From: the human T2T-CHM13v2.0 reference genome, Homo sapiens
Length of the DNA stretch: 64,000 bases
Strand: one strand, 5' to 3'
Assembly (NCBI RefSeq): GCF_009914755.1
Contig: NC_060943.1
Every line of letters begins with the position of its first letter. Positions within the stretch are counted from its first letter, which is position 1. Below, piece by piece: positions 42,041 through 49,384 of the stretch. A model generated the notes under the pieces. That model was not told the DNA's origin. It saw nothing but the letters and a program-made list of their open reading frames with translations, and ran no database searches. A program made the translations under genes and the position numbers.

Positions 42041-42649
42041 GTGGCTGGGCATGGTGGCTCATGCCTGTAATCTCAGCACTTTGAGAGGCTGAGGCAGGCG
42101 GATCACCTGAGGTCAGGAGTTCAAGATCAGCCTGGCCAACATGGTGAAACCCCGTCCCTACTAAAAATACAAAACAGCCAGGCATGGTGGAAGGTACCTG
42201 TAATCCCAGCTACTCGGGAGGCTGAGGTGGGAGAATTGTTTGAACCCAGGAAGCGGTGGTAGCAGTGGCTGAGATTGTGCCACTGCACTCCAGCCTGAGC
42301 AAAAGAGTGAGACTCCATCTCAAAAAAAAAAAAAAAAAAAAACCCTCTCTCTCTCTTTGATTGTCACACCCAGGCTGGAGTGTGACAAAAACAAAACTAA
42401 TAGGTCAAATTCAGCATGCAGGAAGAAGCACAGGAAAATAGAGAGAGAAAAGAAAAAAGAAGAAAAACAACACCAAGTTACTCTAAGTACTGTGGAAATA
42501 AACTGAAAGTGGGGTTAGAGAAAAAAAGAAAGAAGAAGGTCCAAGTAGTTCCAGGTACTTGGGAGGCTGAGATGGGAAGACCAACTGGACGTGACCAGTG
42601 AATCACAGTCTGCATGGACCTGAATGGTACAGGCGCCAGTGAGAGCCAT

Positions 42650-42660
42650 CTGGTCGACCT
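42650..42660 (-). terminator. Intact Sal-box core AGGTCGACCAG (candidate TTF-I site)
   Basis: Plus strand ctggtcgacct. Identical to the 11-bp core of the mouse Sal box and one base from the human GGGTCGACCAG. Function untested. Confidence 0.5.
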
Positions 42661-46121: not shown

Positions 46122-46609
46122 TGTTGGGAACAGGCTCCCAAATCTGGCCATAAACAGGCCCCAAAACTGGCCATAAACAAAATCTCTGCAGCACTGTGAC
46201 ATGCTTGTGATGGCTATGATGCCCATGCTGAAGGTTTTTGGTTTACCAGAATGAGGGCAAGGAACACCTGGCCAACCCAGGGTGGAAAGCCGCTTAAGGC
46301 ATTCCTAAACCATGAACAATAGCATGAGCAATCTGTGCCTTAAGGACATGTTCCTGCAGCAGATAACTAGCCAGAGCCCATCCCTTTGTTTCCCATAAGG
46401 AATGCTTTTAGTTAATCTATAATCTATAGAAACAATGCTTATCACTGGCTTGCTGTCAATAAATATGTGGGTAGCACTCTGTTTGTGGCGGTCAGCTCTG
46501 AAGGCTATCAGCCCCCTGATTCCCACTCTGCACTCTGTATCTGTGTCTGTGTCTTTAATTCCTCTAGCGCCACTGGGTTAGGGTCTCCACGACTGAGCTG
46601 GTCTCGGTA
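46122..46609 (+). mobile_element. MER9 solo LTR (HERV-K9/HML-3) inserted into array unit 5
   Basis: tgttgggaacaggctcccaaatctggccataaac...gctggtctcggta, flanked by a perfect 6-bp TSD AAAGAC (46116-46121 and 46610-46615). Confidence 0.9.
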
Positions 46610-49384
46610 AAAGACCAATAAATAAATGAGAGTGAACAAGGGTAAAAAATAATTAATATCACAATTAAGATATTCTTCTCTCTCTCTCTCTGATTATCAC
46701 ACTCAAGCTGGAGTGTGACAAAAATAAAAAAAATCTAAGAGGTCAACTTCAGCATGCAGAAAGGAACATAGAAAAATAGAGAAAACAACAAAGATTTAAA
46801 ACAACAGCAAGTCACTCTAACTACTGTGGAACAAACTGAAAGTGGGGTTAGAACAAAAACAGAGGAAGTAGGTCCTAGTAGTTGCAGGGACTCTAGAGGC
46901 TGAGATGGAAAGATCACCCATGTGAGAACAAGACTGAGGCTACAGAGAGTCATAATCACATCACTCTGCTGGACCTGAAACAGTATGGCCACCAGCGAGA
47001 ACCATCTGGTCAACCTTAGACATGGCAAGCTGGCAGCTAAGCCCAATGCTCATGGCTGATATCCATCAGAAAATATATAAGCAAAAAAACCAACAGTAAA
47101 TATTTAACAATATCAAAGAAATAATAACAAACAATACTAAACACCAGTAAATCAATAAGCAGGAGTCAACAAAGATAAAAAGTAATTAATATTACAAGTA
47201 AGATCTTCTTCACTCTCTCTCTCTCTCTCTCTTCATTTGTCACACCCAGCTGGAGTGTGACAAAAAAATCTAAAAGGTAAACTTAAGCATGTAGAAAGGT
47301 ATGTAGAATAGAGAGAGAAAGAAAACAAGTAAAATAACAGCAAGTCATTCTAAGTACTCTGGAAACAAACTGAAAGTGGGGTTAGAAAAAAAAAAAGGAA
47401 GAAGGTCTGAGTAGTCCCAGGTACTCATGAGGCCGAGATGGGAAGACCACCCAGGCAAGACTGGGGAGATCTCGATCACATCCCTCTACTGGACCTGAAG
47501 GGTACTGCCACAGGTGAGAACCATCTGGTCAACCTTAGACATGGCAAGCTGGTGGCTAAGACCAAGGGTCATGGCTGGCATCTGTCTCAAAATTAATAAA
47601 CAAAAATACCAACATTACACATTTAACAATAACAAAGAAATAACAATATTAAGGACCAATAAATAAATAAGTGGGAGTGAAAAAAATAAAAGGTAATTAA
47701 TATCACAGTTAAGATTTCCTCTCTCTCTCTCTCTCTCCTTTTGTCACACCCAGGCTGGAGTGTGACAAATAAAAAATAACCTAAAAATTCAACTGCAATG
47801 TGCGCAAAGGACTATAGGAAAATAGAGAAAAGAACAAACAAGAAAAACAACAGCAAGTCACTCTAAGTACTGTGGGACAAACTGAAAGTGGGGTTAGGAA
47901 AAAAAAAAGGAAGAAGGTCTGAGTAGTCCAAGGTACTCAGGAGGCTGAGATGGGAAAACCACCTGGGTGAGACTGGAAAGATCAAGGCTGCAGTGAATCA
48001 GGATGGCATCCGTCTGCTGGATCTAAGTGGGACTGCTGCTTGCAAGAGCCATCTGGTTGACCTTAGACATGGTGAAACATGAGGCATCTGGAGGACCTTA
48101 GACATGGCAAGGCAAGAGCCATCTGGTTGGCCATAGACATGGCAATCTGGTGGCTAAGCCCAATGCTCACAGCCGACAGCTGTCTCAAAATAAATAAACA
48201 AAAAACCCAACAATAAATATTTAACAATAACAAAGAAATAATAACAAACAATATTAAGGAAAATAAATGAGTGAAAAAGGTAAAGAGGATAATAAATATC
48301 ACAATCAATATTATCCCCTCTTTTTTTCTCTCTTTCTCCATTTGTCACACCCACGCTGGAGTGTGACAAAAAAAAATAGTTAACTTCAGCTTATAGGAAG
48401 GAGTGTAGGAAAATAGATAGAGAAAGAACAAAGAAGAAAAACAACAGCAAGTCACTAGAAATACTGTGGAAACAAACCGAAAGTGGCTTTAGAAAAAAAG
48501 AGAAAGAAGTTCCGAGTAGTCCCAGGTACTCAGGAGGCTGAGATGGGAAGACCACGCAGGTGGGACCAGGAAGACTGAGGCTGCAGAGAATCATGATCAC
48601 ATCCTTCTGCTGGACCTGAATGGTATTGCCACTTGGCAAGAGCCATGTGGTGAATCTTAGACATGGCAATGGAGGAGCCATCTTGTTGACCTCAGACATG
48701 TCAGGGCAAGAACCTTCTGGTCCTGCCTCCAGTTTCCCTCTCCAAAATGGATTTATGTTTTAATATATTTAATAATTCTAATATTGAAATAACTTTATTT
48801 AGTTTTTATTCATCAAAAATACTAATTTTCTGTATAATTAATGGTTAGATTTAATTTAATTAGATTTAAATGAGAAATTGCCACAATCAAAACTTTTTAA
48901 AAGTACAACTGTATTTTATAGTTATAAAATGTACAAAATATGCAAAAATTAAAAATAAATTTGTGACATATTAAAGTGTATCTGTGTCTGTAAGATTGAG
49001 AAACATAGTGGATAAGCACATTGTCTACTCCTGAAACTTTCTTTTTATAATGAGGTGACTTTAGAAATGTCATTCAGCCTTCTTTTGTTTAATATCTCCT
49101 CACCTGTAAAAAGGGAACAATAAAGCACGTTGTAGATTTATGATAAAAATACATGTAAAACTTGTTATAGTATTCTAGAGTAGTACTATAATATAGTGGG
49201 AATATATGTTTTTCTTTTTAGAACAAAACTGTTACAAAAAAAGGGGTTCAATAAAATATTTCTGAGTTGGAAACAATGGCAAGTATACGGCAGAATGTTT
49301 TGGTTTCCTCCATAAAGCAGACGTCATCTGTCCATGAAAGATCTCCTCACTTGGAATGAAATTATAAGTCACTTGAAAATAACA

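What the first reader, a model, noticed from the sequence alone, without database searches (positions are those of the whole stretch)
42344..48725. Fossil rDNA Pol I terminator (Sal-box / R-repeat) array stranded in a KRAB-ZNF cluster
Seen: nine tandem units, each with a same-orientation motif whose consensus is AGGTCGACCAG on the minus strand. Copies lie at 42650 (intact), 43314, 44262, 44961 (GGTCGACC intact), 45952+45982, 47006, 47525, 48053+48088+48123 and 48647+48682. Known: this is the TTF-I Sal-box core that ends Pol I transcription and forms the rDNA replication fork barrier; in human rDNA it sits in tandem R-repeats downstream of 28S. Recalled similarity extends beyond the box. Minus strand here CAGCTGTCGGCTGTGAGCATTGGGCTTAGCC vs rDNA CAGCTGCCGCCCGCGAGCTCCGGACTTAGCC upstream of the box; here CTGGGACTAC...CTAACCCCACTTTCAGTTTGCTTCCACAGTACTTAGAG vs rDNA CTGGGACCAC...CAGCCCCACCGCGAGTTTGCGTCCGCGGGACTTTTAAGAG downstream, then T-rich tracts in both. 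Inference: this is an orphan copy of an ancestral primate rDNA terminator array that escaped concerted evolution. No 28S or ETS sequence flanks it.
Basis: partly seen in the sequence, partly recalled or inferred. Interest (0 to 1): 0.92.

Follow-up and report, generated by a model that had tools for sequence, protein, structure and literature searches.

The report
Fossil rDNA terminator repeats, chromosome 19

Summary
Window 42344-48725 is a degenerate tandem array of nine units (511-700 bp without inserts). Ten Sal-box-position motifs sit on the minus strand, and one is intact.

A profile of 70 chr19 unit matches aligns collinearly, on the predicted strand, to three R repeats downstream of 28S in the T2T rDNA (E 2e-11 to 2e-9). 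A fourth R copy and the unit's second half match more weakly. The reversed rDNA gives 0 hits.

A paralogous array at chr19:24.142-24.147 Mb abuts a 28S plus 5.8S pseudogene in the orientation expected for rDNA. Older degraded rDNA remnants in the acrocentric distal junction, chr12:38.09 Mb and chr15:14.79 Mb carry the same unit downstream of a 28S piece.

The family is low-copy: five chr19 arrays on both sides of the centromere and a few fragments elsewhere. The window array is a duplicate (82-89% identity) of units at 23.564-23.578 Mb. Its Sal boxes have mostly decayed at the CpG.

Degraded rDNA units near centromeres are already described in general. I found no description of this chr19 terminator-array family. 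I see no evidence of present function. Interest is moderate: a new member of a known kind.

The parts
42344..42388 (-). Tail of a truncated unit at the left edge of the array, next to an Alu at 42044-42343. The rDNA-sense strand is the window minus strand.
   Evidence: nhmmer hit to profile positions 497-536
42389..43016 (-). Unit 1, long form. Carries the only exact AGGTCGACCAG, at 42650-42660.
43017..43649 (-). Unit 2, long form. 88% identical to chr19:23564147-23564770.
43650..44661 (-). Unit 3, long form, interrupted by an Alu at 43908-44205 (+).
44662..45667 (-). Unit 4, long form, interrupted by an Alu at 45060-45346 (-). Its box at 44961-44971 has GGTCGACC intact. 86.5% identical to the paralog unit, which appears to carry the same Alu (matching length and one continuous alignment).
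45668..46726 (-). Unit 5, with a roughly 480-bp insert at about 46120-46600 (family not identified here) and a duplicated Sal-box sub-repeat.
46727..47261 (-). Unit 6, short form.
47262..47772 (-). Unit 7, short form.
47773..48363 (-). Unit 8, short form, with three 35-bp Sal-box sub-repeats at 48043-48145.
48364..48725 (-). Unit 9, truncated just after its Sal-box sub-repeats. This is the right edge of the array.
42650..42660 (-). The only motif in the window that keeps the TTF-I core 10-mer GGTCGACCAG.
   Evidence: core motif as given in PMC3772059

Best explanation
The array is a non-functional relic of the rDNA Pol I terminator region (the R-repeat / Sal-box module), sitting outside any nucleolus organiser.

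Shown: it is homologous to the R repeats and to the stretch just downstream of them in the present human rDNA. It belongs to a low-copy family. One chr19 array of that family is still attached to a 28S/5.8S pseudogene. Other members lie downstream of 28S pieces in old rDNA remnants.

Inferred: at least part of an rDNA unit, running from ITS1 through the terminator repeats, landed near the chr19 centromere tens of millions of years ago. The terminator array was then carried to at least four further places on both sides of the centromere by segmental duplication, including into the ZNF724-ZNF91 interval. Since then it has evolved neutrally, without homogenisation against the rDNA. The changes were CpG decay of the Sal boxes, Alu and other insertions, a roughly 100-bp deletion variant, and local gain of 35-bp Sal-box sub-repeats.
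For: 1. Match to the rDNA. A profile of 70 chr19 unit matches hits three R repeats of the chr13 rDNA as single collinear alignments over profile positions 40-343. The hits are at C13:5787980-5788307, 5788811-5789138 and 5789641-5789971, with E 1.8e-9, 2.1e-9 and 2.2e-11. A fourth partial copy scores 1.9e-7. The unit's second half matches 1.1e-6 at C13:5791416-5791512. The reversed rDNA gives 0 hits at E<=1.
2. Block identities. Consensus against rDNA gives 58/86, 57/81 (the Sal-box block) and 38/51 identical. 0 of 2000 shuffles reach these scores (the blocks were chosen after the fact).
3. Link to 28S. The chr19:24.142-24.147 Mb array abuts, on the matching strand, a 28S pseudogene (Rfam LSU 358 + 1215 bits, model positions 27-3401; 80-82% identity over most of its length, 86-87% over two short stretches) and a 5.8S pseudogene (76 bits).
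4. Other remnants. The acrocentric distal junction has a 28S 3' fragment followed 0.85-1.5 kb downstream by the unit, with E 3e-21 and 8.9e-15. chr12:38.09 Mb and chr15:14.79 Mb show 28S, then this unit, then distal IGS, in order.
5. Low copy number. 33 of 33 candidate places for the 110-nt core were scored. All lie in the chr19 arrays, distal junctions or a few mostly pericentromeric sites.
6. Duplication. Units pair one-to-one with 23.564-23.578 Mb at 82-89% identity. Four pairs have starred support in the tree.
7. Decay pattern. Over all chr19 arrays, 29 sites keep GGTCGACC and 29 have the CpG transition forms GGTCAACC or GGTTGACC. The linked 28S pseudogene differs from 28S at 42.6% of CpG sites and 9.1% of other sites.
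Against: The match to the present R repeats is weak (28-35 bits, with 27-28 bits of composition bias removed) and rests on a profile. Plain blastn at E<=10 showed only simple-repeat and Alu hits among its best rows in the R-repeat region.

The window array itself has no 28S, ETS or other unique IGS piece beside it.

The 28S-array junction at chr19:24.147 Mb is rearranged. About 510 nt of the 28S 3' end and the 3'ETS are missing, and Sal-box sub-repeats interrupt the 28S. Adjacency there is therefore not the native junction.

Present R repeats lack the unit's second half inside each repeat. The chr19 array is thus not a simple copy of an array like today's.

Isolated fragments on chr7 and chr5 have no other rDNA piece within 5 kb.
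Confidence: 0.88

Rival explanations
1. Common mobile ancestor. The unit is an old composite element built from Alu-like monomers plus an A-rich core. It seeded the rDNA spacer and chr19 separately, and each copy was amplified on its own.
For: Profile positions 150-227 align to the Alu domain of the genome's own 7SL gene (E 2.1e-9) and to ordinary Alus. Isolated pieces at chr7:16.719 Mb and chr5:144.715 Mb show a free Alu-like monomer, an A-rich tail, the core, a TC tract and an antisense Alu, with no other rDNA piece within 5 kb. Several partial copies end at the poly-A-like end of the unit.
Against: Only 33 places in the genome hold the core, which is far below a mobile family. At least four independent loci carry the unit downstream of a 28S piece in the same orientation. 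The chr22 fragment spans the tandem junction. All 17 chr19 units in the tree fall on one side of a branch with 100/100 support, apart from the rDNA copies, as expected from one arrival.
Confidence: 0.06
2. Chance resemblance. This is a chr19-specific satellite made from Alu debris whose CpG-containing palindrome happens to read like a Sal box.
For: GGTCGACC is a short palindrome. Part of the unit is Alu-like. The rDNA spacer is full of Alus and TC repeats, which give many spurious hits.
Against: Homology covers three non-Alu blocks in the right order and strand. The reversed control gives 0 hits. A sister array is linked to 28S/5.8S.
Confidence: 0.02
3. Retained function. The relic is still used. 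Surviving Sal boxes would bind TTF-I and act as a replication-fork barrier, a boundary, or a tether of the zinc-finger cluster to the nucleolus.
For: One exact motif with the core 10-mer is in the window, and 20 exact 11-mers occur over all chr19 arrays. Passages of PMC2845662 report that much of chromosome 19 and ZNF genes are enriched in nucleolus-associated domains. Clustered TTF-I sites act cooperatively in rDNA (PMC3772059).
Against: 9 of 10 boxes in the window have lost the core 10-mer, mostly by CpG transition as expected for unselected methylated DNA. Units differ by 11-39% from one another. RefSeq lists no functional element in the interval (hub table in the finding). No binding data were available to me.
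Confidence: 0.04

Closest known systems
Human rDNA R repeats (Sal-box terminator / replication-fork-barrier repeats downstream of 28S)
   Same: Homologous Sal-box block, homologous downstream block (antisense Alu-like stretch plus T-rich stretch), same order and strand, tandem units of similar size, and several boxes per unit through short sub-repeats. R-repeat size and role are taken from passages of PMC8559705.
   Different: Not next to a transcribed 47S gene. Not homogenised. AT-rich, at 35-48% G+C, whereas the R repeats are very GC-rich. Each chr19 unit also holds a second half (A-rich tail, a core of about 50 nt, a purine/pyrimidine tract and an Alu-like palindrome). Today's rDNA has this once, after the last R repeat, with microsatellites in its place inside each repeat.
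Degraded rDNA units near centromeres and at array edges (Robicheau et al. 2017, PMC5381670)
   Same: The same phenomenon: rDNA, spacer included, escaped from the arrays, sits near centromeres and decays. Their HSA2 vestigial-centromere example may correspond to my chr2:132.7 Mb hit, but I did not compare the coordinates. The chr19:24.147 Mb 28S/5.8S pseudogene is of this kind.
   Different: The passages I read never mention chromosome 19, terminators or R repeats. I could not see their figure 4, which plots all chromosomes, or their supplements. Their megablast approach would not detect units this diverged. On chr19 only the terminator part was multiplied, to five arrays.
rDNA remnant in the acrocentric distal junction
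   Same: A 28S 3' fragment followed by about 1.5 units of the chr19 type. It matches the chr19 profile better than the present R repeats do.
   Different: It lies beside the live arrays, on all five acrocentrics, and has one to two units rather than an array.
Spacer-derived satellites in other organisms (tomato, PMC2679016; characiform fish As51, PMC13170303; search listing only)
   Same: Tandem repeats from the rDNA spacer found away from the rDNA.
   Different: Those are high-copy satellites. This is a low-copy, decayed family in a primate gene cluster.

Membership tests
rDNA R-repeat / Sal-box terminator module (membership by descent) | Sequence homology to the R repeat across the Sal box and its non-Alu flanks | tested here: met
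   nhmmer E 2.2e-11 to 2.1e-9 for three R repeats over profile positions 40-343. Reversed control gave 0 hits. Block identities 58/86 and 57/81.
rDNA R-repeat / Sal-box terminator module (membership by descent) | Same order and strand of blocks as in the rDNA | tested here: met
   Single collinear alignments, all on the minus strand relative to the window plus strand. The second half matches just after the last R repeat.
rDNA R-repeat / Sal-box terminator module (membership by descent) | Physical linkage to the 28S 3' end | tested here: not met
   Not met in the window. Met in the sister array at chr19:24.147 Mb, with a rearranged junction. Also met in the distal junction, chr12 and chr15 remnants.
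rDNA R-repeat / Sal-box terminator module (membership by descent) | Homogenisation with the live rDNA copies (concerted evolution) | tested here: not met
   Units are 61-89% identical to each other. They are separated from the R repeats by a long branch with 100/100 support.
Working Pol I terminator / TTF-I fork barrier | Intact TTF-I core motif GGTCGACCAG (PMC3772059; human 11-mer GGGTCGACCAG in PMC6281188) | tested here: inconclusive
   1 of 10 boxes in the window keeps the 10-mer, with A rather than G before it. 20 exact 11-mers among 126 box-position sites over all chr19 arrays.
Working Pol I terminator / TTF-I fork barrier | Position downstream of a Pol I-transcribed 47S gene | tested here: not met
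   No 45S sequence in the window. Rfam at an E-value threshold found no rRNA in 42000-49000.
Working Pol I terminator / TTF-I fork barrier | TTF-I occupancy, termination or fork arrest | not testable with these tools
   No binding, transcription or replication data were available.
Alu / 7SL-derived SINE | Match to the SRP RNA model or to a 7SL gene over the element | tested here: not met
   cmscan finds only the inserted true Alus, not the units. Only profile positions 150-227 align to 7SL positions 19-91. Sal-box block against the 7SL S domain: 582 of 1000 shuffles score as high.
Catalogued human satellite or interspersed repeat (Repbase/Dfam) | Match to a library consensus | not testable with these tools
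   No such library is on hand. The hub's list of the longest masked stretches holds none inside 42344-48725.

The most novel reading that the evidence does not exclude
The chr19 arrays preserve the full-length ancestral form of the primate Pol I terminator repeat. That would show the module was assembled around an antisense Alu-like monomer, and that today's R repeats are a shortened derivative in which microsatellites replaced the second half. In addition, the roughly 20 still-intact Sal boxes spread over five arrays around the chr19 centromere would bind TTF-I and help bring the zinc-finger clusters to the nucleolus.
Probability: 0.1. Interest if true: 0.8.

Novelty: new member of a known kind. 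Interest (0 to 1): 0.55.

Why it matters
The live rDNA spacer is constantly overwritten by concerted evolution, so its past states are lost. These roughly 60 decayed units, together with the remnants in the distal junction, chr12 and chr15, form a dated series of snapshots of the terminator region. From them the earlier architecture can be read: a Sal-box block set in an Alu-like monomer, plus a second half now present once per rDNA unit.

The arrays also mark an old rDNA insertion beside the chr19 centromere that was later spread by the duplications that built the ZNF91-type gene cluster. That gives extra markers for dating those duplications.

Practically, these arrays and the 28S/5.8S pseudogene are places where rDNA-derived reads or probes can mis-map.

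Tried and rejected
1. Sal-box block from the 7SL S domain. This was a by-eye idea based on recall. I located the genome's own 7SL gene with a 22-nt motif, fetched it and confirmed it by Rfam at 293 bits. nhmmer aligns only the Alu domain. For the S-domain comparison, 582 of 1000 shuffles score as high. Rejected.

2. Rfam scan of the array at an E-value threshold. Only the true Alus and weak miRNA-like hits on the Alu-like palindrome appeared. Nothing identifies the unit.

3. Plain blastn of the array against the rDNA. It was swamped by Alu and TC-repeat hits. It found the distal-junction copy but no convincing R-repeat hit, so a profile was needed.

4. The genome search with RF00017 failed twice with a machine error.

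A 2.5-kb fetch showed 5.8S and ITS1. Whether 18S and a promoter are there stays open.

7. Literature searches found no description of the chr19 arrays. The supplements of the T2T repeat preprint, which lists 13 newly annotated interstitial satellite arrays, were not visible and might name this one.

8. The tree included only the 21 matches that cover profile positions 100-335 in one piece. Units of the 28S-linked array are split at their sub-repeats and were left out, so the tree says nothing about where they fall.
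Full report
**What is in the window.** The interval 42344-48725 is a degenerate head-to-tail array. Direct-repeat families recur with spacings of 511-1057 bp. An alignment of nine units starting at 42389, 43017, 43650, 44662, 45668, 46727, 47262, 47773 and 48364 shows homology along the whole unit.
- Units 1-4 are a long form of about 630-700 bp once two Alus are removed.
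- Units 5-9 lack about 100 bp of an Alu-like palindrome; units 6-8 measure 511-591 bp.
- The Alus are at 43908-44205 (+) and 45060-45346 (-) (Rfam SRP matches).
- Unit 5 carries a further insert of roughly 480 bp.
- Unit 9 stops after its Sal-box sub-repeats.

The motif AGGTCGACCAG, allowing 2 mismatches, occurs 19 times in the window. Shuffles give a mean of 9.55 and 1 of 100 reaches 19. Thirteen occurrences lie on the minus strand inside the array. Three of these fall at another position of the unit, which leaves ten at the Sal-box position. Only the copy at 42650 is exact.

**Is it related to the rDNA terminator?** The assembly that holds the window is searchable, so I fetched 60 kb of chr13 spanning the end of the distal junction and one whole rDNA unit. 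I placed 18S, 5.8S, 28S and the promoter RNA with Rfam.

Plain blastn of the array against this DNA was dominated by Alu and TC-repeat hits. A profile HMM of the nine units was more sensitive.

I then built a broader profile from 70 matches in all chr19 arrays, excluding rDNA and the distal junction. It gave these results:
- Three R repeats align as single collinear alignments over profile positions 40-343, with E 2.2e-11, 1.8e-9 and 2.1e-9.
- A fourth partial copy scores 1.9e-7.
- The unit's second half matches with 1.1e-6, about 0.8 kb after the last R repeat.
- The same DNA read backwards gives no hit at E<=1.

Identity between the chr19 consensus and the rDNA is 58 of 86 positions in the block downstream of the box, 57 of 81 across the Sal-box block and 38 of 51 in the core. 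0 of 2000 shuffles reach these scores. The blocks were picked after seeing the alignment, so the nhmmer E-values and the reversed control carry the weight.

**Paralogs settle the origin.** A search of the whole assembly with unit 2 found arrays only on chromosome 19, plus short pieces elsewhere. Profile hits show:
- about 6 units at 23.564-23.568 Mb;
- about 10 units at 23.574-23.579 Mb, partly inverted;
- about 9 units at 24.142-24.147 Mb;
- about 18 units on the other side of the centromere at 30.299-30.309 Mb;
- one or two units at 23.036 and 23.229 Mb.

The array at 24.142-24.147 Mb runs straight into a 28S pseudogene on the strand that makes 28S sense continuous with the rDNA-sense strand of the array. 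Rfam LSU scores 358 and 1215 bits over model positions 27-3401. Identity to 28S is 80-82% over most of the pseudogene and 86-87% over two short stretches. A 5.8S pseudogene (76 bits) and ITS1 follow further on.

That junction is rearranged. About 510 nt of the 28S 3' end and the 3'ETS are missing, and Sal-box sub-repeats interrupt the 28S.

Other old rDNA remnants tell the same story.
- The acrocentric distal junction holds a diverged 28S 3' fragment (77% identity). About 1.5 units of the chr19 type lie 0.85-1.5 kb downstream of it (E 3e-21 and 8.9e-15). One such hit appears on each of the five acrocentrics.
- chr12:38.09 Mb has a 28S 3' end, the same unit-bearing stretch and then distal spacer pieces, in order.
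- chr15:14.79 Mb is a younger pseudogene with 28S, 3'ETS, one R repeat and spacer. It gives stronger profile hits (5e-18 and 2e-13) than the live rDNA does.
- At chr19:23.036 and 23.229 Mb the unit is followed, in the rDNA-sense direction, by spacer pieces from about 5 kb downstream of 28S.

**Not a common transposon.** The 110-nt core of the unit has only 33 candidate places in the genome, and all were scored. They lie in the chr19 arrays, the distal junctions, chr15:14.8, chr12:38.1, chr8:46.4, chr2:132.7, chr22:45.5, chr7:16.7, chr5:144.7 and chr12:66.7 Mb.

Part of the unit (profile positions 150-227) is Alu-like. It aligns to positions 19-91 of the genome's own 7SL gene and to ordinary Alus. 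My own suspicion that the Sal-box block came from the 7SL S domain failed its test.

**History within chromosome 19.**
- Window units 2-6 pair in order with units at 23.564-23.568 Mb at 83-89% identity. Units 7-9 pair with units at 23.574-23.577 Mb at 82-88%.
- In a tree of the 21 matches that cover profile positions 100-335 in one piece, four such pairs have starred support. All 17 chr19 units are separated from the three R repeats plus the chr15 pseudogene by a branch with 100/100 support. Units of the 28S-linked array were not among the 21.
- The Alu in unit 4 appears to be shared with its paralog. The paralog unit is similarly long and aligns with unit 4 across the Alu in one 1011-column alignment. 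This puts the insertion before the duplication.
- The chr19 28S pseudogene differs from 28S at 42.6% of 768 CpG sites and 9.1% of 2803 other sites. The chr15 pseudogene shows 5.3% at non-CpG sites and the distal-junction fragment 12.9%.

From general primate substitution rates (my knowledge, not a call), this places the arrival tens of millions of years ago and the window's duplication later, still tens of millions of years ago. I do not give a tighter date.

**State of the boxes.** Over all chr19 arrays there are 142 sites within 2 mismatches of the 11-mer. Sixteen are the unrelated position. Twenty are exact. The 8-nt core is intact in 29 sites and carries a CpG transition (GGTCAACC or GGTTGACC) in 29. 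This is the pattern of unselected, methylated DNA.

The core motif needed by TTF-I is given as GGTCGACCAG in passages of PMC3772059. The human consensus is given as GGGTCGACCAG in passages of PMC6281188. Some arrays have multiplied the 35-bp sub-repeat that holds the box, which echoes the several boxes per R repeat in the rDNA.

**What differs from today's R repeats.** Each chr19 unit has a second half: an A-rich tail, a core of about 50 nt, a purine/pyrimidine tract and an Alu-like palindrome. In the live rDNA this second half occurs once, after the last R repeat, and microsatellites fill the matching place inside each repeat. The distal-junction copy has the chr19 arrangement.

Two histories fit. 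Either the ancestral terminator array had full-length units and the live copies were later shortened. Or a single full-length unit was amplified after leaving the rDNA. Other primates' rDNA would decide, and I could not reach it.

**Known or new.**
- Passages of PMC5381670 describe degraded, near-full-length rDNA units with spacer at array edges and near centromeres, with HSA20 and the HSA2 vestigial centromere as examples. The text contains no mention of chromosome 19, terminators or R repeats. I could not see its figures or supplements.
- Passages of PMC2845662 mention Pol I rRNA pseudogenes as a track on a chromosome 19 map, so the 28S pseudogene is probably already annotated.
- The T2T repeat preprint lists 13 new interstitial satellite arrays without naming them in the text. 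Its supplements were closed.
- Six full-text searches found no description of terminator-derived arrays on chromosome 19.

I therefore file this as a new member of a known kind.

**Function.** Nothing in the sequence argues for present function, and RefSeq marks no element here (hub table in the finding). A role for the few intact boxes in TTF-I binding or nucleolar association of the zinc-finger clusters is possible but untested. I keep it as the boldest reading, at about 10%.

Noticed in passing
L029:8946-10000, L030:1-3000, L046:850-1334 (chr19:24,146,946-24,152,334): An rDNA pseudogene on the minus strand holding nearly all of 28S, plus 5.8S and part of ITS1. The 28S 3' end is rearranged. 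Whether 18S and a promoter lie further on could not be read.
   Followed up: partly
L021:2672-3144 and 3989-4978 (chr13:5,764,672-5,766,978): The last 6 kb of the distal junction looks like a very old, scrambled rDNA unit: a 28S 3' fragment, terminator-type units, and then pieces matching the spacer 8-9 kb and about 20 kb downstream of 28S.
   Followed up: partly
L041 (chr15:14,785,001-14,795,000) and L043 (chr12:38,084,001-38,094,000): Two further degraded rDNA units near centromeres. The chr15 one is younger (5.3% non-CpG divergence in 28S). The chr12 one resembles the distal-junction version but has a better-kept 28S end.
   Followed up: partly
L040:5100-5450 (chr7:16.719 Mb) and L044:4850-5150 (chr5:144.715 Mb): Isolated fragments of 250-400 bp with the layout Alu-like monomer, A-rich tail, unit core, TC tract, antisense Alu. 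They are more alike to each other (82%) than to chr19 units, and no other rDNA piece lies within 5 kb. How they got there is unexplained.
   Followed up: partly
L029:7014-8230 and L031:4011-5482: Local expansions of the 35-bp sub-repeat that carries the Sal box, seen as many successive hits to profile positions 274-320. They give box-dense stretches inside two of the sister arrays.
   Followed up: no
window 42895-43010, and the same part of units 2-4: The long-form units end in a stem of about 27 bp made of an antisense and a sense Alu-like 3' end. This draws weak miRNA-like Rfam hits (mir-643, MIR4387, E 0.006-0.05), most likely meaningless.
   Followed up: no
window 50679-51223: A GC-rich tandem repeat with a 40-nt period (about 14 copies, 76% matches), overlapping the interval annotated as VN1R91P. 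G+C rises to 63-65% here.
   Followed up: no
L028:3611-4798 (chr19:23,574,611-23,575,798): Part of the 23.574-23.579 Mb array is inverted: units on the minus strand lie between units on the plus strand.
   Followed up: no
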